A DNA stretch of 49,298 bases. It comes from an uncultured Candidatus Peribacteria bacterium (GTDB lineage: Bacteria; Patescibacteriota; Gracilibacteria; BD1-5; UBA6164). Positions 1 to 49,298 of this stretch are shown here, piece after piece; the first letter of the stretch is position 1, and each line of letters opens with the position of its first letter. The stretch spans positions 1-49,298 of the forward strand of contig CAZPIB010000002.1 of the NCBI GenBank assembly GCA_964586815.1, in the 5' to 3' direction. The notes below the pieces were generated by a model. That model searched no databases. It had not been told where the DNA came from and saw only the letters and a list, made by a program, of their open reading frames with translations. The translations under genes and the position numbers were made by a program.

Positions 1-55
1 TTCAGTTTTAGGAGCTTCAGTTTTAGGAGCTTCAGTTTTAGGAGCTTCAGTTTTA
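1..55. repeat. Terminal redundancy: bases 1-55 are identical to 49244-49298. The block is 3.7 copies of the 15-bp unit ttcagttttaggagc.
   Basis: Direct comparison of the first and last lines of the window. The ORF crossing the junction is in frame only if an overlap of 10+15k nt is removed. Confidence 0.9.
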
Positions 56-162: not shown

Positions 163-3100
163 TTACCAAACTTTTCTTAGTCTTTTTTTCTTTTTAGGTT
201 CAAAAACTTTATTCCAATCTTCTAAATTATCTTTTTGATCTTCTGTTGTATGATTACTTCTTTTAACTAAGTTTCTTATCTTAGCAATATGTAATCCAAC
301 TAAAAAACTATTTGTAATATCATCTTTAAACATACTTTTCATAGCAAGCCTACCCTTATTATCTTCATCTTCATAGATAAAATTCATTTCTTCTAATAAA
401 TCTTTATTTGAGGTTTTTAAAACCTCAACTATTCATTCTTCCATAAAATCTACTGCATTTCATATTAATCTAGTTTTAGAGACTCTCCAATCTATCCCTT
501 TTGATGATTCTGTATCTCAAGAAGTATATCAGATTTTAATGAGTGTTTTATCTTTAAAAGTATGCTTAAATGCTTCATTGAATCATTCTCATACTCATCT
601 AATATCAACTCAATATACTATCTTTGGAAAACTTCAGAATTGTTTAATGATTGTTTTTTGATAATATGAGATTTGTGTACTCCATTGTTTTTTATGAGAT
701 TTAGGTACAAATCCAGATAAAATAACATATATCTTTCAGTTAATAATATATAGAACTGTAAAAGCACTTCTATCTGCTCAAGGTCTAGCTGGATCAAAAG
801 TAATAATAAAATATCACTCTTCTCAAATAATTGGATATGAACTGGTTTGTAATGGCTTAAAAAGAATATCATCTCAACTGTTCCAGCTACAAAACCATTG
901 CCTTTGATTTTTGGCTTTTGCTTGATTTTTCATAACTCTTTCTCTAAGCTTTGGATTAACTAGAGGATTTTGAGTAATATCAATTTGATAATAACTAACA
1001 TCTGGTAGTGATTCTGATTTAACTGCAATTTTAATTCATGCTAATTCAATTCCTTTTTTTGCCTCCATTATTAAATCATAATAATATCATTTAGCAGTTT
1101 TTCAAGGAGTTCAAATTAAAATCATTCTTCAATTAGTTGTAGCAAGAGTTGGTTCAAGTACTTCTTCAAAAACATAATCACTAATTAATTGAGCCTCATC
1201 AATAATGATATTACTTAAAGTTAATCATAGTACATTTTCAGCATCTCAATCTAGTGTTCTAAAATAGATCTTAGTTCAACTTTTTGTATTTAAAATATAT
1301 CATTCAGATTTAAAGTGAGTAAATATCCCATCATCAAATTTATTAATAAACTTCAACATATAATTTCTAATTACATCTGTGGTTTTTTTAATATATCATC
1401 CAACTAAAGTATCTTCATTTGGTAGAAAACTTAATTCAACTGCTTTTTCAGCTATTGTCAAAGAATTATGAGTCAATATTCAGTTAGAAAAATATAATTC
1501 ATCATCTGATTTTACCGCTATAGTTACAACTTTTTCTTCTCAAATATATTCTATGTTTTTTATTTTAACCCAAAGATAATCTAACCAACTTTCTAAATTA
1601 TCTCAAATAAAGTGTTTTGATTTTATTTTTCTTCTTTGAAAAGGATAAGATGGCTTCTTATTGGTTCTACTAGTATTGGTTATATTATTGACTGCATCTA
1701 ATGGTATTAATGAAACTTTTCAATTAGTTTGAATGTTGTTATCTGTTAATCTTGCTTTAAATTTTGTATAATTTAATTTTGTAGTTATATCTATTTTTGA
1801 ATCTAATAAAATAAGACTCTCTTTGTTAGTTATATATAAATAATAAGCAAATTCTCTATGTTTTTTAAAATTACTTCTTATTTTTTTAGTTCTTATAGCA
1901 CAGATAACCCCTAACTTTAATAATAATAATTGAAGTTGAATAATTAATTGTTTCGAAGTAGAACAATATTCAATACTAGCTGCTCTATTATTAGATATAG
2001 ATAAATATGCATCAGTGTTAAATATTCATTCAAGAAAAGCCCATTGATTAATATTACTTGTTAAAAATACTTTATTGTCTATAAATTTTTCATAAGAATA
2101 TAAATCCACTCAATTAAAATTAGTCCTTTGTTTATATTTTTCAATATTATAAATATTTGATGTTCATTTTAAATTTGAAGTAATTTTATATTCAGAGATA
2201 ATATCTTTTAGTCTATTATGGTTTCAAGAAATTTGATTAGTTTTCCTGCATCAATCTCAAATAAAGTATCAAAGAAGCATAAAATCTTCTCTTGTGTGTG
2301 TTTCTTTTTTATTATCATTGTATCAAAAAGAGTAATTAAATGCTGTAGGAATGAATAAGTTAGCTTCTCTTTGTAGCCTTTCTTGTATTTTTCTTTCAGG
2401 AAGTGTTCTATTCTTATTTAATCTTCTGTTTTCTTTTAATATATCTAATTCTTTATTTAAATTAATGAATTTTTCAAATAAAGATTTAGCATTTATATAA
2501 TGTTCTTTATTATTTAATTTATTTGCATCCCATTTTTCTCAATTAAAATTATGAGAAAGTGGTATTCTATGTTCTTCAGATATTGTATGTTCCATTCAAT
2601 TTTCTAAAGTAATCTTATAACTTGGTTTTTTTGAATAAGAAAGTTGTGTGATTTCAGTAAATTTATAATTACTTCACAATATTTTATCTCATACCTTTAC
2701 GTGTTGGGCTTCTTTATATCAATAATCTTGACAGAATACCTTTTGGTTGTATAGTACACTTTTACCTAGTTGTCTACTTCAATCAAGTAAGATTATTGGA
2801 GAATCATCCTGTAGTAGAGTATCTTGCCATTTTATATAGACTTGTTTAGTTCCCCATTTTGGCACAACATAAGGGGAGTATCAAGTTATCTTTCTTATTG
2901 CATCTCTTGAAATTGTTAAAACTTTCTTTTTCTTTTTATTTTTATTTTTATTTTGTTCTGGTTTTTGAATTGTAGGTCTTTCAGTCTGAATAAAAGTATT
3001 ATTTCTTCAGTCTTTTTTAACTAACCATAATTTAAGTTCATCAATTTTATAATAATATCATTTAAAGAAATAGAAATTATTGTATTGTGATCTTGTTTTT

Positions 3101-3342
3101 TCAGAAATGATTTTATTATAGTATTCATGTTTAGAATATAATTCTATCATTTTTATGGTATGCTCTTGTTGTTTTGTTATATCAGTAAAAATCATAGCAT
3201 TATCAATATTCTCAAAATGAAATTCAAAAGGCAAAGTAAAATACCTAAGATTTTTCCATTTCTTAGGTTCTGCTTCTGGTATTAAATCCTCCTGAGCTGG
3301 ATTGAATGTTCAATTTTTAACTAGCCAATATTTATCTATCAT
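163..3342 (-). CDS. terL: Terminase large subunit, 1059 aa as a precursor, interrupted by an intein.
   Basis: The frame was hand-scanned and contains no TAA or TAG. Walker A is ILLDGSRQLGK/S, Walker B is NIIIDEAQ and the coupling motif is MILIGTPG, with both Gly of LIGTPG encoded by TGA. The ATG overlaps the stop of the upstream ORF. Confidence 0.85.
1465..2760 (-). mobile_element. Intein of 432 aa with a LAGLIDADG homing-endonuclease domain, inserted in the TerL P-loop.
   Basis: The N-terminus is SVLYNQKV directly after GSRQLGK. Block B is ISEEHRI. The LAGLIDADG motifs are LLGYFIGDGC and FLEGIFNTDAYLS. The C-terminus is FSNGILTHN followed by Ser. The spliced extein restores GSRQLGKSLTIAEKAV. 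Confidence 0.8.
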
Positions 3343-18802: not shown

Positions 18803-21800
18803 ATGAATACTATATCAAAATTTACCATTAATCCTCTATCGAAAAAATATTCTTCTGATGAAATGGAATTCATTGATGAATTAAATCTATCAAAAGAAAT
18901 ATGATATGAATTTCCTCATTATTATTCTGATAATACAATTACTGGATATAGAGCAGCAATAATTAAGTGTGATGAAGTGGATGTTGATTACATAGAGCAA
19001 ATATATAAATTAAAACCAAATAAGATTTATTGCCATAAAAATGTAAGGCATTTAGTTTTCTATTTTAAAAATAGTCTTAATAAATATGACTATAATAGAA
19101 TTACAAAAGCATTAGGTTTCTTATATAAATGAAAAGCTATTAATTATCATTTTTATCCATTAAATGGAGTAATTGAAGAGTTTTCTTCAGGAGAACTAAA
19201 CAAGTCATTATCTGATACTTGTACAAAACTATATTTTTTCCAACAACAAAGTATAAAATATCAAAAACTTTTTACAATTAGTGAATTTGATAAATATCTT
19301 GAAGTTGAGAAACTTAAGATAAAAGAAGTTGTAATAGCTTTATATAAAAAAGAGCCAGCAGTAATTCCAGATATTTTAAAATTAATTGATATTAGAAATA
19401 ATATTCATAAAGAATATTGAAATGCTTTTTCTTTTGTTCATCATTATTATTCTAGTATTGAAAAAGCTAAACAATTTTTTAAAAATGATTTTAAGATTTG
19501 ATTTGAAGAAACCAACTCTTTTGATTTTACTAAAGCAAAAGAATGAATAGTAATAAAAGAAGGAGAAAACTTATTTTTAAGTGAATTTTGATATTTTTCA
19601 CTTGATCCATCTGGAAATAATAAAAGATTAACTGATTTTTATATAAAAGTTCATGCAAAAATAGTATGAAAAGACTGAAAACATTTTTTTGTTGTTACTT
19701 TAGTTAACCAATGAGAATGAACTGAAACCAAGAAAATGATATGGGAAAATAAAACTTCTGGAACTACATTTTCTGATTTTATCCAATCTTATTGACCTTA
19801 TCATTATTATGGATGACCAGCTTTTATTAAAGAATTACATAGGCAAATATCTTCAACTAAGCAAATTTCAACAATTCAACAAGTAGTCTGATATTGACAT
19901 CATAAATCTGAATGAATAATTATTTTTAAAAATTGAATATGGGATATAAAAGAAAGATTATTCACAAAAAAGAAAGATAATGATGATGATTATTATTATA
20001 ATTATGATAGTAAATGATATTGGGTTACAGATAAGGGTTGAAATTCATTAACAGAAGTTCTATCTACTTGAGTGCCTAATTTGAATATTGAAGGAGTTGT
20101 TGAGATGGGTGATATTCTTGATTTTATGTCAGAATTATATGCTGATAATTCTTGAAGTTACTTAGTATTTTTAGCATTTGGGATGATGGGGTATCTTACA
20201 TATTGAGATTCAACAAAACCTTTCCCACTAGTATTTACTAGATGAGTAACTTGATGTGTAGATTCAGAAACTGAATACTTAACACCAACTTGATGGAAAT
20301 ATATTAAAGATTATCAAGAATGAGATATAATTTGAGAATTTAATAAAGATACTTGAAAATGTATTTTTAACAAACCATTAGATTATATTAAAGAAAAAGA
20401 TAATAGATTAGCATACAGAATTAAAACTAAAAATATAGATATGCTTCTAACAGAAGAGCATAGATTATTATCACAATCACAAAGAGATGTTTATTCTACT
20501 ACTCAATTATGAGAAGTTGTTTCTGATTTAGAATTACATAAGCACCATAAAACAAATAAATATAATATTCCTGTTGTTTTTGATATTGAAGACAAAATAG
20601 GAATAGATTTATCTGATGTAGAATTACAATTAATGGTGGCAGTTATAGCTAATTGAAGTTTTCCTAAAAAAAATGTTTGATGAAGGTGATGAGAGTATAT
20701 ATCCTATATTAAGATAAAAAAAGAAAATAAAAAAAAGAGACTAAGGGAAATATTGAATAAAACTGATATTTTTGTAGAAGAAAAGAATAATCCCGAATGA
20801 TATACTACTTTCAAATTTGATGCACCAAGAAAAGATAAGGTGTTTTCTAAATATTATTGGGGTGCTAGTAAATCTCAATTAAAAATAATTGCTGAGGAAG
20901 TAAGTTATTGGGATTGAAGTGTAGATAGAAAAGAAAGTGCTGACTTTGTTCAATATGCTTTACTTATAACTAATCAAAGTAATGATATAGAGATTATATC
21001 AACTCAACAAAAAAAGAAATCTACCAGAATAGAATATAAAGATATTGTTAGAGAACAACTTACTGATTGAAATAAATATTGTTTTACAACTAATACAAGC
21101 TATTGGGTAGCTAGAAGAAAATGAAAAATTTTTATAACGTGAAATAGTTGAAAATCTACTTTTAATGAATTACTTCAAAGAGTTTGGGGAATTAAAAAGG
21201 CTGGTACAGATTTTGAAAACTCTACACTTTTTACGATGACAGTAACATTATCTTATTTGATAAAGTTCCCATATTTTATTGCAGAATATAGAGAATCAGC
21301 AAATCAAAGATTACAGAAAGTAGGAACTTTAAGAAGTGTATTTGATAAAATTTCTCAAACTAAAGGTAGAGCAGACCAGTCTGTTGTGAAATATGATTAT
21401 TTTGCTACACCAGTATTAGATTGAGAAGAAATGATAACTGATCCTGCATTAAGGACAAGAAGCTTACAATTACAATTATTAAAAAAACATAAAATTCAAT
21501 GAAACTTCTCAAAAATTTTAAGAGAATGATGATCTATTTTAGATAAATTAATGTTTACTTATTTATCTAAAAGTACTTGAGATAAATACCAAGACTATTT
21601 AGATGAATGATATGATTTTTTTAAAAAACAAACTAGTCAAAATAGAATAGCTCAAAATGTTGCAAGTATTTATGCTTGATGTATGGCATTTAATTCAGAA
21701 AAAGATAATGAAGATCAATATAAAATGGTATTATCTGAAATAATACTTTTCCAAGAAGAGGATGTTTCAGAAAATTCTAATCAAATGCAAATCATTAAAT

Positions 21801-22105
21801 TAATTTCTAAATTTATGGAGTCTTCTTACAATTGAATATATCCATTAAAAGACAGGGTTGTTATTAGTTGGAATGCTTTTGAGGAATATGTGAGTAGACA
21901 TAGACTAAAAACAACGTTAAAAATAGACACATATAAAGAACATTTAATGATAAGGGATTTTAATATAGAATTTATTGAGGTTTGAATTGAGTGATGATTA
22001 GTTGAGTGAATTATTATTCCTTATAAATTAATCCCCAAAAATTTATTAGTCCACACAGAAACATATAAATTTTATAAGGATTGGAAAAATTTATCTTCTA
22101 ATTAA
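18803..22105 (+). CDS. Large replication ATPase, primase/helicase-like with a P-loop (D5/P4-like). The precursor is 1100 aa and is interrupted by an intein.
   Basis: The whole frame was hand-scanned and contains no TAA or TAG. The P-loop is split as FTRGVTG / SGKSTFNELL, and splicing restores GVTGSGKST. Confidence 0.7.
20255..21145 (+). mobile_element. Intein of 297 aa with a LAGLIDADG-like endonuclease region, inserted in the Walker A loop of the replication ATPase.
   Basis: The N-terminus is CVDSETEYLTPTGW and block B is LLTEEHRLL. The endonuclease-like motifs are LMVAVIANGSF and IIAEEVSYWDGSV. The C-terminus is YWVARRKGKIFITGN followed by Ser. The penultimate residue is Gly (TGA) rather than the usual His. 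Confidence 0.7.
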
Positions 22106-31163: not shown

Positions 31164-31191
31164 AATAAAAAAAGCCCTATTTATAAGGCTT
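31164..31191 (-). terminator. Weak intrinsic terminator after the methyltransferase gene.
   Basis: On the minus strand AAGCC-10 nt-GGCTT is followed by T8. The stem is only 5 bp. Confidence 0.4.
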
Positions 31192-33373
31192 ATTTAAGTA
31201 AATTATCAAATATAGCTTTTACTACAGGTACACTTACTGCATTACCTGCTTGTTTATATGCTTGTGAATTACTCATAAATTCAGTAGACCAGTTATCAGG
31301 GAAGCCCTGTAATCTTGCACACTCTACAGGTGTTAATTTTCTTATTATAAAATCGTCTAAAACTACCCCGTCTACTCCTGCTACTGTTAAAGTTCCACTT
31401 ATTCACTCTTTAATTCTGCTTCTTTTTGTTATACTTTTTGGATTATCTAAAATAACACCGTCCCCTATTTTAGCCTCAGCATATCATTTTTTAGTCCCAT
31501 TGTTTAATTTTATAAATTCATATATCTTTGGTCTATTTCAACCATCTCCAGCTGTTAGAGTTGGTACTAATCAATCCATACCAATAAAAATATTATCCTG
31601 ACTAAAATTACAAAAACTAGGATCCTTTAAATTTACTTGTAGTTTTATTTGTTTGGAATCTCTTGGAGTTATTTTATTATAAATTCTTTTTAAACTATCA
31701 AAACTTAATTTTTTATATTGTTCTTCGGTCATAAAAAATTTACTATCTACTTCTTTTTCTAAAATATCTTTTAAGAAAATATTTAATTCTTTACCTTCTG
31801 GGAAGTTGAAATAATCTAAAGTTCCCACACCTAATTTTCAAACTATAAAAACCCTTTGTCTATTTTGTGGCAATCAAAAATCTTTTGTATTTAAAACTTG
31901 AAATTTTACATCATAACCAGCATCTTTTATTCTATCTAAAATACTTTCAAAAAATCATTTGAATTTTTTATTTAAAAGCCCTTTTACATTTTCAAAAATA
32001 AAATATTGTGGTTGTTTTGTTTCTAAAATCTGTAATAAATATTCAACTAGTATAGTTCTTCAACCTTCCTTTAGGTTTTGTTTTCACGCTACACTAACAT
32101 CCTGACAATTATGTACAATGCAATTGTTTGCTGTGTAAGAATTATCATTTTCAACTTCTATATTATAAACAGTATTTGTTTCTTCTAAATATTCTTTTGA
32201 TTTAAAAGGTAGCCACATATATCAATTTATATTAATTCAATTGTCTTGTGTTTTTTTTTCGAACTTAATATCTAATGAATAAGTATCCCTCTGGTTAACT
32301 TCTCTTCATTCAATAATTGTTTTAGGTTTTCTTTTTGTATAATATACAGATGTAGGAGTTCAATATACTTTATGAACTAATTGTTGTATTCATAATATAA
32401 GTTTTTTTGATACAGATGAAACACGGTAATATCACTTATCCTTATAATAGTGTCAATCTCAGTCTATATATCATATTAATAATTGCTCTAAGTATTCTTT
32501 ATTTAATCACATTATTGATGTTGGTATAAATTTTCAATAACTGTATTTTCAAAATTGTTCCATATACTCCACAAATTCTTTATTTGCAATATAATATTTT
32601 AAAACAGTTCTGTCATCTACTTTTGAATAATTAAATAATCACTCTAGTAATTCTTCTACTTCTTTGTATTGATTTTTATTACAACACAATACTACTCTGT
32701 GTGATTTACGCTGTATATTTGGTCATCTACTATAACTACCCCACCATCCATCTGCTAGAAGCCTTCAAACTAATTTGTAAAATTTTAAACTTTTATCAGA
32801 ACATTCTGTAAGATCATCTTGAATGTTAAATCATATAAAATCTCATTTATTTAAATCTTCTACATTTTTCCACTTCGGTTCACTAAAAACTCTTTCATAT
32901 TTTCTAATTGAATTATTCCACTTTTTAGTCATTTCCCTTACATAATATGGATGCTCATTTGTTACAAAAGTTTCTAATGCTCCCTGTATTTTAACATTAT
33001 AAATTCATTTTTTATTTGGAGTTACAAAATGCCTTAATACTTTTTGATATTTATTTGTGTGTGTTAATACATAATCTCAAACTTCCATATTTTTAATATC
33101 TTTATATCACTTTTGTGTTAATACCATTGTTCATTCTTTAAAACAAGGAAATCCACCAGTTAATAAATCAAAATCAGGTAAATTTTCTATATCTATTTTT
33201 GTTATATCTCATAAATCAGGACTAGTTGCAAAATGTTCTTTATAAACTATTTTAGCAAATTTATCTATTTCGCTAAAGCCTATACATTCAATATTTTCTT
33301 TACCTATACTTTTCTCTAAGGCTAAATGAAAACCACCTATACCAGAAAAGGTATCTAAAAATTTCATAATCAT
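31190..33373 (-). CDS. DNA (cytosine-5) methyltransferase. The precursor is 727 aa and is interrupted by an intein at the catalytic Cys.
   Basis: The frame was hand-scanned and is open. Motif I is FLDTFSGIGGFHLAL. Motif IV is split as LLTGGFP / CQDVSVAGKQ. Further motifs are ENVKGL, QNRQRVFIVG, RKLTPVECARLQGFPDNW and AGNAVSVPV. Confidence 0.85.
32108..33145 (-). mobile_element. Intein of 346 aa with a LAGLIDADG homing endonuclease, inserted between Pro and the catalytic Cys of methyltransferase motif IV.
   Basis: The N-terminus is CFKEGTMVLT and block B is VTNEHPYYV. The LAGLIDADG motifs are LVGRLLADGWWG and LLIGYIDGDGHY. The C-terminus is TANNCIVHN followed by Cys. Confidence 0.8.
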
Positions 33374-38417: not shown

Positions 38418-40253
38418 TTAAGAGATATTAATTAAACAACTGAAATCTGAACCAGCTACTGCACTTCAAACTTGTGTTATTTTTAATGTAAATACATCTG
38501 TATTTACTAAAGCTGTTGCTATATTTAGATTTGCTATATGCCTGCCATTTATAGCAATTCATCACCCATTAATTATACTTATATCTTTATTTAGACTAAT
38601 TCAGTTTTTATAGCATTTAACTATAAAATTAGCACCAGTATTTGCAACTTGTAAGGCTATTTTTATATTTCATACTGTTTTATTTCAGTCAGCTATATAC
38701 TCAAAGAATTCAGTTCAAGCTATTTGTGGTCAAGCTATTTTAACTGTTTCTATTCATCAGCCTCCTCATCAGGCATTATCATCTACATATTTTTTAGTAG
38801 CAGGATGATAATTTGTTGTTGGAATAAAACTTGTTGTATTATTTTTTTCTAATACATTAGTCTTATCTGCTTTAGTGTTATCTGATGGAGGTGTATAATT
38901 TCACTCTAACATAGTTCCAGCAGTAGTTCAAAACTGTAATTTATTTTTAATAAAAGTATCTAATGTATTATTTATCTCATTAAAATCAGATTGTACATTA
39001 GCTTTTGCATTATTTTCAATGGTTCATAATTTAGTTTTCTCTATATTTGTAAATTTTTCTCAATCAAGATTGATTATTGGATTCGCTGGATCTAAATTAT
39101 TAATAGTTATGTTACTTCATCAGACTATTGATGATATGGTTCAACTTCAATTTGTTACTGTGAAAGTTGAAGTAGTTCCATTTTGATATGTAATTGTGTA
39201 AGTATCTATAAGTCAAACAGTTCAAGTTTTTGTTGTACTAACAATTCAACTTCAATTTGTTATTGTATATGTTGTGTTTGTTCAATCTGTGAAGTTAATT
39301 TGATAAGTATCTATAAGTCAAGTAGTATTTATCTTTACAATATTAATAATTCAACTTCAATTTGTTATTGTATATGTTGTGTTTGTTCAATCTGTGAAAT
39401 TAATCTGATAAGTATCTATAAGTCAAGTAGTATTTATTTTTACAATATTAGCAATTCAATTTCAATTTGTTACTGTGAAAGTTGAAGTAGTTCCATTTTG
39501 ATATGTAATTGTGTAAGTATCTACAAGTCAAGCAGTTCAAGTTTTTACTATATTGGAAATTCAATTTCAATTTGTTATTGTGAAAATTGAAGTAGTTCCA
39601 TCTGTATAAGTGATAGTATAAGTATCAACAATTCAAGTAGTTCAAGTTTTTGTTATGCTTTCAATAAAATTTCAAATAAATAATCAGTGATGTCTATACT
39701 CTATTTTAGAAATAAGGGAACTTACAACAGTAACCTCAGCAGTAATTATTCCTTTTTCAGTAGTAGCTGTATTCTCATTAGTTGTGGATTTTATTGTATT
39801 TGTATTAAGTTTATAATATATATAATTAATTCAGTTAGATAATATTAAATCTTGATCCATTACTTCTATTGTTTCTATTCATTTAGCTATTGGTCATCAT
39901 AAAACTCTTATCTCTACATTTCATAATTGTTCAATAAAAAATGTTGTACTATTTAATTTAGATAAATAGTTGAAAACTAAAGAAGTATCATTGATTTGTA
40001 CTTTTTCTGTACTAAGATGTGATTTAGGCTCAATCCTATCATTTCATCTTACATAAATAGAGTTTCAAACAACTTTATTATAAAACATTTTTTCTCTATT
40101 TAAAATGTTGTCTGGATCTACAATAATAAATCATTTTTGATGTTGTGGTACTTGAGTTACAATTAAAATAATATCTCAACTATCTGCTAAGTTATTTGTT
40201 AATTCTGTTTGGTAAAAATCTTCTACAAGAATATTTTTAGTTGTTTTTGACAT
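38418..40253 (-). CDS. Tail fibre protein (611 aa) with five 35-aa tandem domains.
   Basis: The frame was hand-scanned and is open. It contains the repeat G-I-x-N-I-V-K-T-G-T-x-G-L-(V/I)-D-T-Y-x-I-x-(Y/F)-x-(D/N)-G-T-x-(S/T)-x-(F/Y)-T-(V/I)-T-N-G, the fibre motif HPATKKYVDDN, and a GGGGGG linker encoded tga tga gga ggc tga tga. Confidence 0.75.
39130..39655. repeat. A 105-bp coding tandem repeat of five units inside the tail fibre gene.
   Basis: The units at about 39246-39350 and 39351-39455 are nearly identical. The flanking units are more diverged. Confidence 0.8.
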
Positions 40254-48904: not shown

Positions 48905-49298
48905 TTAAATCTTTGAAATAACTTCATTTATTAATCCTTGTAATTTAATCTTGAAAGGATTACTATCTGGAATTTCTTTTTTAGCCTCTTCAAGTAAAGT
49001 TAAAAGTTTAGATTTTTTAGGAGTTTCTTTTTTTACTATATTTTTATCTGGCTCTGGAGAAAATTTTAATGCCTCATCAGTATCAATAAATTCTAAATAA
49101 CCTTTTTTCATTTTTGGATTAATAATAGTTCCATCAATTCTTTTAACTCTCACAGAAAAAGTTTCTTTAATTATTCCTCATTTTTCATTTGTAATTTTTT
49201 TCCCAATTTCATCTCAATTAATATCTAAAATGATAAAATCTTTTTCAGTTTTAGGAGCTTCAGTTTTAGGAGCTTCAGTTTTAGGAGCTTCAGTTTTA
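48905..49298 (-). CDS. 3' part of the junction-spanning ORF (see 1-72).
   Basis: The track ORF 48905-49153 extends upstream through two TGA into the APKTE repeat. Confidence 0.6.
49244..49298. repeat. Terminal redundancy copy, identical to 1-55.
   Basis: Direct comparison of the two ends. Confidence 0.9.

What the first reader, a model, noticed from the sequence alone, without database searches (positions are those of the whole stretch)
1465..2760. Intein with a LAGLIDADG endonuclease splitting the Walker A loop of the large terminase
The TerL ORF is about 430 aa too long. Directly after GSRQLGK the sequence switches to an intein-like N-terminus (SVLYNQKV..., then ISEEHRI). Two LAGLIDADG motifs follow (LLGYFIGDGC, FLEGIFNTDAYLS). 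The insert ends in the canonical GILTHN|S. Removing it gives GSRQLGKSLTIAEKAV, a normal P-loop and helix, with Walker B IIIDEAQ downstream. The first residue would be Ser rather than Cys.
Basis: partly seen in the sequence, partly recalled or inferred. Interest (0 to 1): 0.7.

Follow-up and report, generated by a model that had tools for sequence, protein, structure and literature searches.

The report
LAGLIDADG intein in phage terminase P-loop
The large terminase gene of this phage, which reads TGA as glycine, is interrupted in its ATP-binding loop by a genuine self-splicing intein carrying a homing endonuclease; this is a well-known kind of selfish element in a well-known kind of site.

Summary
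The gene lies on the minus strand, and it is open only if TGA is read as glycine (code 25).

- **ORF:** under code 25, one 1059-codon ORF (3342..163, minus) encodes TerL.
- **Insert:** a 432-aa segment (2760..1465) sits exactly between Lys and Ser of the Walker A motif GSRQLGK|S.
- **Homologues:** all 25 homologues that cover the site lack exactly these 432 residues and read GSRQ[IL]GK|S.TIAEK without a gap.
- **Intein features:** Ser1, block B SEEH and a C-terminal THN followed by Ser+1. Its N- and C-terminal splicing regions match the solved gp41-1 intein (E 3e-9).
- **Endonuclease:** Pfam LAGLIDADG_3 scores above threshold, and both motifs keep their catalytic Asp.
- **After excision:** the protein matches Terminase_6N across the junction.
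- **Relatives:** related inteins occupy the same site in two other code-25 phage TerLs. The intein-bearing genes are scattered among intein-free ones.

Insertion between the P-loop Lys and Ser/Thr of TerL is the "classic" site already described for mycobacteriophages. This is therefore a new member of a known kind. Splicing and homing are inferred, not shown.

The genome also carries a second intein (in a C5-methyltransferase) and a probable third (in a primase/helicase P-loop).

The parts
163..3342 (-). TerL precursor CDS (1059 codons plus stop), readable only with TGA = Gly. It contains 46 TGA, 15 TGG and 10 GGN codons.
   Evidence: The start at 3342 is supported by homologues that begin ML.K.W...G.FNP.Q.
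2761..3342 (-). N-extein, 194 aa. It ends in the first part of Walker A, GSRQLGK (2781..2761).
1465..2760 (-). Intein, 432 aa, SVLYNQKV...SNGILTHN. It has 17 TGA and 1 GGG glycine codons, and 22.6% GC.
2554..2760 (-). N-terminal splicing region: Ser1 (AGT, 2760..2758), block A, and block B GMEHTISEEHRIPL (2598..2557).
   Evidence: Residues 13-69 align to gp41-1 intein residues 15-71. [ST]xxH is conserved in 5 relatives.
2248..2277 (-). First LAGLIDADG motif, LLGYFIGDGC. The catalytic Asp is kept, and three of its Gly residues are TGA codons.
1792..2040 (-). Pfam LAGLIDADG_3 match (intein residues 241-323). It includes the second motif FLEGIFNTDAYLS (2037..1999), with the catalytic Asp kept.
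   Evidence: 44.3 bits against cutoff 22.5; 61% identity to P0032 over this stretch.
1465..1575 (-). C-terminal splicing region (intein residues 396-432): blocks F and G, VVTIAVKSDDELYFSNGILTHN, ending His-Asn.
   Evidence: Aligns to gp41-1 residues 93-128. TIGR01443 intein_Cterm matches weakly.
166..1464 (-). C-extein, 433 aa. It starts with Ser+1 (TCT, 1464..1462), which is the Ser of Walker A GKS. Walker B IIIDEAQ lies at 1209..1189. The nuclease domain follows.

Best explanation
The segment is a class 1 (canonical four-step) intein with an inserted double-motif LAGLIDADG homing endonuclease. It lies in the Walker A P-loop of the large terminase of a roughly 49.2-kb tailed phage that uses genetic code 25 (TGA = Gly).

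Inferred mechanism:
1. The 1059-aa precursor is translated as one chain.
2. Ser1 performs an N-O acyl shift at the Lys-Ser1 bond.
3. Ser+1, which is the Walker A serine, attacks that ester (transesterification).
4. The terminal Asn432 cyclises, assisted by the penultimate His, and releases the intein.
5. An O-N shift restores a normal peptide bond. The product is a 627-aa TerL with an intact GSRQLGKS P-loop.

Because the intein splits the ATP-binding loop, TerL cannot bind ATP or package DNA until splicing has happened.

The excised intein (or its endonuclease domain) would cut the uninterrupted GK|S-coding site of intein-free TerL alleles during co-infection. Repair from the intein-bearing copy would then spread the element (homing).

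Shown here: the exact in-frame insertion, the conserved splice-junction and block residues, the profile and PDB matches, and the patchy distribution. Inferred: splicing activity, endonuclease activity and homing.
For: - **Exact insertion:** the 25 homologues that cover the site have zero residues in the 432 insert columns and read GSRQ[IL]GK|S.TIAEK continuously.
- **Splicing residues:** Ser1, block B SEEH, and THN followed by Ser+1 are all present.
- **Solved relative:** phmmer against the PDB finds only the gp41-1 intein (6QAZ, 6RIZ; E 3e-9). Separate hits cover the N half (13-69) and the C half (396-432), including SYKITLE.G.E...SEEH and NGILTHN. A profile of 3 related inteins gives E 1.5e-10.
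- **Pfam:** LAGLIDADG_3 scores 44.3 bits (cutoff 22.5) and Intein_splicing has E 4.9e-8. NCBIfam models of intein-containing DnaB, GyrA, IF-2 and RecA hit only through the insert.
- **After excision:** Terminase_6N matches at 33.1 bits (cutoff 22) over residues 188-397, spanning the junction. Thermus phage phiFa TerL aligns in one piece over query residues 11-444. The solved P74-26 TerL ATPase matches the family profile.
- **Related inteins at the same site:** L006 has Ser1 and is 49% identical. L007 has Thr1 and is 40% identical. Junction residues are conserved in both.
- **Patchy distribution:** each intein-bearing TerL has an intein-free nearest neighbour, at 65%, 65% and 83% identity.
- **Endonuclease decay:** L007 has lost both catalytic Asp (GNG, NTAGY). 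The window and L006 keep them. This is the pattern expected from a homing cycle.
- **Not an RNA element:** no Rfam family, and so no group I intron, anywhere in the window.
- **Precedent:** TerL inteins between the invariant P-loop Lys and the Ser/Thr are described as the 'classic' insertion, and such TerL inteins were shown to splice and to cleave intein-free alleles (PMC5050341).
Against: - Pfam Intein_splicing falls 2.4 bits below its gathering cutoff (33.4 against 35.8), and Hom_end_hint is not significant.
- Two residues that are often conserved in block F differ. The Asp of gp41-1's LIDIEV is Thr here, and the block F His is Glu (my reading of the alignment). These positions are variable among inteins but could affect efficiency.
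- No near-identical intein-free allele was found. The best empty sites share only 19-22 of the central 30 nt, so recent homing cannot be shown.
- Intein divergence tracks extein divergence (49/50%, 40/37%). That also fits old vertical inheritance with repeated loss.
- The 3D fold could not be predicted, because the structure and representative-search tools refuse code-25 translations.
- No experiment was done.
Confidence: 0.93

Rival explanations
1. The element is a decayed intein that no longer splices. TerL would then be dead and the genome a defective or non-propagating phage.
For: Pfam Intein_splicing is just under threshold. The block F Asp and His are substituted (alignment). Related contigs L001/L002 and L006 show frameshifts in the TerL N-terminal region, so damaged TerL genes do occur in these data.
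Against: Ser1, [ST]xxH, His-Asn and Ser+1 are all intact and conserved across inteins that are only 40-49% identical. That indicates selection on splicing. The 1059-codon frame has no TAA or TAG. The genome assembles as a complete circle with intact portal, capsid and replication genes.
Confidence: 0.04
2. The insert is an RNA-level element: a group I or group II intron carrying an in-frame LAGLIDADG ORF that is removed from the mRNA rather than from the protein.
For: LAGLIDADG endonucleases are common in group I introns, and phage genes do host such introns (established knowledge).
Against: No Rfam family matches anywhere in the window. The insert is in frame at both ends. It begins and ends on codon boundaries with the intein residues Ser1 and His-Asn|Ser. 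HINT splicing blocks homologous to a solved intein flank the endonuclease.
Confidence: 0.01
3. The insert is a lineage-specific accessory domain of TerL, or an assembly chimera, and is not a mobile element.
For: Only this genome in its immediate TerL clade has the insert. The window's own sequence was not found in the public collections searched.
Against: An insert that splits the P-loop between Lys and Ser is incompatible with ATP binding unless it is removed. The same kind of insert, homologous in sequence, sits at the same codon in independent samples: L006 (ENA ERZ16303040) and L007 (ENA ERZ17987011). Composition and Gly-codon usage match the rest of the genome.
Confidence: 0.01

Closest known systems
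Mycobacteriophage TerL1-a inteins (Kelley et al. 2016, mBio, PMC5050341)
   Same: The host protein is the large terminase. The insertion lies between the invariant Walker A Lys and the nucleophilic Ser/Thr, which the paper calls the 'classic' P-loop site. Inteins at other TerL sites were shown there to splice, and two of them to cleave intein-free alleles.
   Different: The window's TerL is of the Terminase_6N type, whereas site 'a' was described in Terminase_1 proteins. The host and genetic code differ (code 25, about 25% GC). The +1 residue is Ser rather than Thr. Sequence relatedness between these inteins was not tested here.
gp41-1 intein (PDB 6QAZ, 6RIZ), a naturally split intein from cyanophage-like metagenomic sequence
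   Same: It is the only solved structure found by sequence (E 3e-9). It shares SYKITLE.G, the block B SEEH, the C-terminal N.ILTHN and Ser at +1.
   Different: gp41-1 is split and has no endonuclease (about 125 aa in its fused form). It starts with Cys and sits in a different host protein. The window intein is contiguous, starts with Ser, and carries a roughly 325-aa DNA-binding and LAGLIDADG insert at the position where gp41-1 is split.
Unannotated metagenomic TerL inteins L006 (P0032) and L007 (P0037)
   Same: Same TerL family, same insertion codon, same architecture. They are 49% and 40% identical to the window intein and also use TGA = Gly.
   Different: L007 starts with Thr and has lost both catalytic Asp of the endonuclease. 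Their exteins are only 50% and 37% identical to the window's and lie in other branches of the TerL tree.
PhoH-like ATPase intein P0031 (standard code)
   Same: It is a LAGLIDADG intein inserted after GTGK of a P-loop, ending ITHN|T, and is about 26-30% identical.
   Different: The host protein and genetic code differ. It was the only hit of the word-indexed search.

Membership tests
Intein (HINT-domain protein-splicing element, class 1) | An in-frame insertion that is absent from orthologues, whose removal restores a conserved host motif | tested here: met
   The 25 homologues that cover the site have 0 residues in the 432 insert columns. Removal restores GSRQLGKS.
Intein (HINT-domain protein-splicing element, class 1) | Nucleophile (Cys/Ser/Thr) at position 1; block B [TS]xxH; C-terminal His-Asn; Cys/Ser/Thr at +1 | tested here: met
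   Ser1, SEEH, His431-Asn432 and Ser+1. All are conserved in L006 and L007.
Intein (HINT-domain protein-splicing element, class 1) | Significant match to curated intein or Hint profiles | tested here: inconclusive
   Pfam Intein_splicing has E 4.9e-8 but scores 33.4 bits against a gathering cutoff of 35.8. TIGR01443 scores 13.6 against 15.6. Sequence homology to the solved gp41-1 intein is significant (E 3e-9, both halves).
Intein (HINT-domain protein-splicing element, class 1) | HINT horseshoe fold | not tested
Intein (HINT-domain protein-splicing element, class 1) | Autocatalytic protein splicing | not testable with these tools
   This needs expression of a TGA->GGN recoded precursor.
LAGLIDADG homing endonuclease (double-motif, intein-borne) | Profile match above the curated threshold | tested here: met
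   PF14528 scores 44.3 bits against a cutoff of 22.5. All 3 related inteins match.
LAGLIDADG homing endonuclease (double-motif, intein-borne) | Two LAGLIDADG motifs, each with the catalytic acidic residue | tested here: met
   LLGYFIGDGC and FLEGIFNTDAYLS both keep the Asp. L007 has GNG and NTAGY at the same columns.
LAGLIDADG homing endonuclease (double-motif, intein-borne) | Site-specific cleavage of the intein-free allele, and homing | not testable with these tools
   Only indirect support is available: a patchy distribution in the TerL tree. The empty sites found are only 63-73% identical over the central 30 nt.
Large terminase subunit (Terminase_6N-type ATPase plus nuclease) | Profile match, Walker A and B motifs, and position next to portal and capsid genes | tested here: met
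   Terminase_6N scores 33.1 bits against a cutoff of 22 after excision. The P74-26 TerL (4ZNI) matches the family profile. Walker B is IIIDEAQ. An SU10-type portal and major capsid protein follow TerL across the circular junction.
Group I intron with a LAGLIDADG ORF (considered and rejected) | Intron RNA core structure | tested here: not met
   No Rfam match at gathering thresholds in the whole window.

The most novel reading that the evidence does not exclude
The intein belongs to a pool of inteins confined to code-25 (Gracilibacteria/Absconditabacteria-type) phages.
- In this intein, 17 of 18 glycine codons are TGA. They include glycines inside the first LAGLIDADG motif and in the C-terminal NGILTHN block.
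- The element would therefore be truncated in any standard-code host. The genetic code would act as a barrier to its horizontal spread.
- One 49-kb genome carries two or three inteins (TerL, C5-methyltransferase, probably primase/helicase).
- The position-1 nucleophile within this one TerL intein family varies among Ser, Thr, Cys and even a TGA codon.

Together these would make the group a natural experiment in intein evolution under a reassigned code.
Probability: 0.3. Interest if true: 0.45.

Novelty: new member of a known kind. Interest (0 to 1): 0.3.

Why it matters
For annotation, the case is a useful warning. Under the default code the TerL gene of this phage disappears entirely. Even under the right code it looks 430 aa too long unless the intein is recognised.

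Biologically, it extends the known preference of inteins for the terminase P-loop to phages that read TGA as glycine. It also supplies a contiguous, endonuclease-bearing relative of the widely used gp41-1 split intein, one that uses Ser at both splice junctions.

None of this changes current understanding of inteins.

Tried and rejected
- **Standard-code ORF listing** shows no gene at all here. I reread the region with TGA as sense.
- **TGA = Trp (code 4)** was rejected. TGA never aligns with TGG and often aligns with GGN.
- **Word-indexed protein search with the intein:** the Gly version found only one distant PhoH intein, and the Trp version found nothing.
- **Intein searches of contig collections:** the IMG/VR scan found nothing. 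The JGI metagenome scan returned only an unrelated DnaE intein (L005) that shares the 13-aa string WVKIKNIEYIGEE.
- **Megablast of the first 8 kb against GenBank phages** gave no match.
I worked around this with a 101-aa TGA-free stretch of the endonuclease, and that search found the real relatives.
- **P0013** starts exactly at the residue after Ser+1. I suspected a second intein-bearing allele or an assembly break at the junction. It is only a TTG start chosen by the gene caller in an intein-free gene.
- **L006** has a 251-aa gene call on the opposite strand just upstream of P0032. I suspected a fractured or split-intein arrangement. The N-extein and intein are in fact continuous on the plus strand, and the opposite-strand call is spurious.
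- **Genome collection (GTDB):** the first scan, with the single protein, found nothing. The profile scan found one intein-free relative in a Gracilibacteria MAG.

Full report
**What is at the coordinates**

With the standard bacterial code there is no ORF longer than 84 aa between 1 and 3500. The minus strand is full of in-frame TGA codons. Read with TGA as a sense codon, one frame stays open from 3360 to 163 on the minus strand. The first ATG is at 3342, giving 1059 codons. These are exactly the coordinates given.

**Genetic code**

The quoted motifs need TGA = Gly, so I tested that.
- In an alignment with 27 database homologues, gene callers had translated TGA as W. Columns where the window has TGA show G 135 times and W 368 times. 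Columns where the window has TGG show W 189 times and G never.
- At codon level across seven TerL genes whose DNA I retrieved, TGA pairs with TGA 422 times, with GGN 198 times and with TGG 0 times. TGG pairs with TGG 258 times and never with TGA or GGN.
- The universally conserved P-loop glycine of GK[ST] is itself a TGA codon in most intein-free alleles.
- ORFs of at least 100 aa cover 5% of the window in code 11 and 77% with TGA read as sense.

This is genetic code 25, known for Gracilibacteria, Absconditabacteria and many of their phages (PMC10746230). An intein-free TerL that is 63% identical lies on a contig binned with a Candidatus Gracilibacteria MAG. That is a hint about the host, not proof.

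**The host protein is TerL, and the insert is exact**

A search with the excised (spliced) sequence returned about 27 close homologues. The full-length ones are 600-675 aa and none is about 1060 aa. In the multiple alignment, the 25 homologues that cover the site have zero residues in the 432 insert columns. They read ...GSRQ[IL]GK|S[LHFKY]TIAEK... without interruption.

After excision:
- The protein matches Pfam Terminase_6N (33.1 bits, cutoff 22) over residues 188-397, across the junction.
- It aligns in one tblastn piece to Thermus phage phiFa TerL, and also to TerLs of P23-45, P74-26 and G20c.
- A family profile matches the solved P74-26 TerL ATPase around Walker B.

In the related contig L003, TerL is followed by one small gene, then an SU10/P22-type portal, and further downstream an SU10-type capsid gene. 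The window has the same genes across its circular junction.

**The insert is an intein**

- Junction residues: Ser1 (AGT), block B GMEHTISEEHRIPL, C-terminal ...LYFSNGILTHN, then Ser+1 (TCT), which is the Walker A serine.
- phmmer against all PDB chains finds only the gp41-1 intein (6QAZ, 6RIZ; E 3e-9). One stretch covers intein residues 13-69 and a second covers 396-432. The solved mini-intein therefore matches both ends, and the middle 325 residues are an insertion where gp41-1 is naturally split. A three-sequence profile improves this to E 1.5e-10.
- Pfam Intein_splicing gives E 4.9e-8, but at 33.4 bits it is 2.4 bits under the gathering cutoff. I therefore mark that single criterion as inconclusive.
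- NCBIfam models of intein-containing DnaB, GyrA, IF-2 and RecA hit only through the insert.
- No RNA family, and so no group I intron, is detected in the window.

The one-residue boundary ambiguity (GK|S...HN|S against GKS|...HNS|) is resolved by the His-Asn|nucleophile rule. L007 supports the same choice: its intein starts with Thr, yet its nearest intein-free homologue has GKS.

**The endonuclease**

Pfam LAGLIDADG_3 scores 44.3 bits (cutoff 22.5) on intein residues 241-323. Both motifs, LLGYFIGDGC (2277..2248) and FLEGIFNTDAYLS (2037..1999), keep the catalytic Asp. The enzyme could therefore be active.

**Relatives and distribution**

Word-indexed searches nearly failed. An exhaustive HMMER search with a 101-aa TGA-free stretch found relatives. 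After I retrieved their DNA and translated it in code 25, the picture is as follows.

| Locus | Position 1 | Identity to window intein | Endonuclease Asp | TerL family |
|---|---|---|---|---|
| L006 | Ser | 49% | both kept | same |
| L007 | Thr | 40% | both lost (GNG, NTAGY) | same |
| L014 | Cys | 33% | not examined | other |
| L012/L013 | TGA codon | 34% | not examined | other |

All of these inteins follow the P-loop GK and end THN|S.

In a neighbour-joining tree of exteins, the three intein-bearing genes of this family are scattered. Each has an intein-free nearest neighbour: the window at 65%, L006 at 65% and L007 at 83%. This patchiness, together with one decayed endonuclease, is the usual signature of a homing element.

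Intein and extein divergences are similar, however (49/50% and 40/37%). The empty sites available share only 19-22 of the central 30 nt with the window's reconstructed site. Recent homing is therefore not demonstrated, and old inheritance with repeated loss is not excluded.

The intein's composition (22.6% GC, 17 of 18 Gly codons TGA) matches the genome. It has therefore been resident in code-25 genomes for a long time.

**Mechanism**

Canonical class 1 splicing, inferred from established intein chemistry: an N-O shift at Ser1, transesterification by Ser+1, cyclisation of Asn432 aided by His431, then an O-N shift. The product is a 627-aa TerL with the Walker A loop GSRQLGKS.

The intein splits the loop that binds the ATP phosphates. 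The precursor cannot be an active packaging motor, so splicing must precede DNA packaging. The same argument was made for mycobacteriophage TerL inteins, which were shown to splice and, for two of them, to cut intein-free alleles (PMC5050341).

**Comparison with what is known**

[quoted passage not shown] The present case is the same site logic in a different TerL family (Terminase_6N type), a different host group and a different genetic code. I found no paper linking inteins with code-25 phages, but that is an extension and not a new principle. To my knowledge, Ser at position 1 is a known minority state in class 1 inteins.

**Verdict**

The finding is real and was correctly interpreted. It is a new member of a known kind. 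Confidence that this is a LAGLIDADG-bearing intein in the TerL P-loop is 0.93. I would put splicing competence at about 0.85 and endonuclease activity at about 0.5; these are my estimates, not computed values.

Noticed in passing
whole window: The genome uses genetic code 25 (TGA = Gly). At codon level, TGA aligns with GGN 198 times and with TGG 0 times. ORFs of at least 100 aa cover 5% of the window in code 11 and 77% with TGA read as sense. No tRNA gene is present, so no phage-borne tRNA-Gly(UCA).
   Followed up: yes
window 1-55 and 49244-49298: An identical 55-bp terminal overlap (a 15-bp unit TTCAGTTTTAGGAGC repeated 3.7 times) indicates a circularly closed assembly of 49,243 bp. On the minus strand, a small gene with K-T-E-A-P repeats crosses the junction between TerL and the portal gene.
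   Followed up: partly
window 32108-33145 (-), inside ORF 31190-33373 (-): A second intein of 346 aa sits in a C5 cytosine DNA methyltransferase: CFKEGTMV...NCIVHN|C, inserted right before the catalytic Cys of motif IV (GFP|CQ). Pfam scores: Intein_splicing 35.9, Hint_2 30.7 and LAGLIDADG_3 29.1, all above cutoff. DNA_methylase scores 241 bits in two stretches.
   Followed up: partly
window 20255-21145 (+), inside ORF 18803-22105 (+): A probable third intein of 297 aa splits the Walker A loop GVTG|SGKST of a primase/helicase-like protein. It starts CVDSETEY, has LLTEEHRLL, and ends IFITGN|S (Gly-Asn rather than His-Asn). No Pfam or PDB hit was found. The spliced junction aligns without a gap to the Pseudomonas phage PMBT3 primase (FGNAGAGKS).
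   Followed up: partly
L012:2552-5740 and L013:2245-5433 (P0033): A related TerL P-loop intein, seen in two independent samples, has TGA as the codon at intein position 1 (AAA|TGA GGT TAT GTA). Relatives have TGC, AGT/AGC or ACA there. Under code 25 this gives Gly1, which has no N-terminal nucleophile. This is unexplained. It could be an inactive intein, a class-2-like mechanism, or special decoding.
   Followed up: partly
L007:3119-4372 (P0037): The same-site TerL intein here starts with Thr (ACA), a rare position-1 residue. Both LAGLIDADG catalytic Asp are replaced (GNG, NTAGY). Its extein is 83% identical to the intein-free P0025.
   Followed up: partly
window 2761-2772 (-) versus L003, L001, L008, L009, L010: The two intein-bearing alleles with intact endonuclease motifs (window, L006) encode the flanking Q-L-G-K with CTA plus GGT/GGC. 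All five intein-free alleles, and L007, use TGA for that glycine and do not have Leu. This may be a co-conversion tract left by homing, or it may be chance.
   Followed up: no
L001:1-420, L002:1-490, L006:2200-2900: The TerL genes in these related contigs carry a frameshift in the N-terminal extension, at a different position in L006 than in L001/L002. In L006 it lies next to a CAACAAACA-type repeat. These could be assembly errors or real disruptions.
   Followed up: no
window 2782-3342 (-): This TerL family has a conserved N-terminal extension of about 190 aa ahead of Walker A (MLxKxWxxxxGxFNP...YFTLPFE...ISRxAIRxITGYS). No Pfam match was found and its function is unknown.
   Followed up: no
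L005:5001-5108: A DnaE (DNA polymerase III alpha) intein from a 51% GC, standard-code organism shares an identical 13-aa string, WVKIKNIEYIGEE, with the window intein just before block F. Elsewhere the two are unrelated.
   Followed up: no
L015 (CALMDL010000141.1, Candidatus Gracilibacteria MAG): An intein-free TerL 63% identical to the window's lies on a 19-kb contig binned with a Gracilibacteria genome. This hints at the host lineage. I did not check whether the contig is a prophage or a co-binned phage.
   Followed up: no
window 39140-39651, inside ORF 38418-40253 (-): There are 4.9 tandem copies of a 105-bp unit. They encode repeated 35-aa modules (TGTxGLxDTYTITYxxGTTSTFTxTNGxGI) in a 611-aa protein that is probably a tail fibre or receptor-binding protein.
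   Followed up: no
L001:1822-2382: A free-standing HNH_3 endonuclease gene lies directly downstream of the intein-free TerL in a related phage contig. This is another mobile-endonuclease association with this terminase locus.
   Followed up: no
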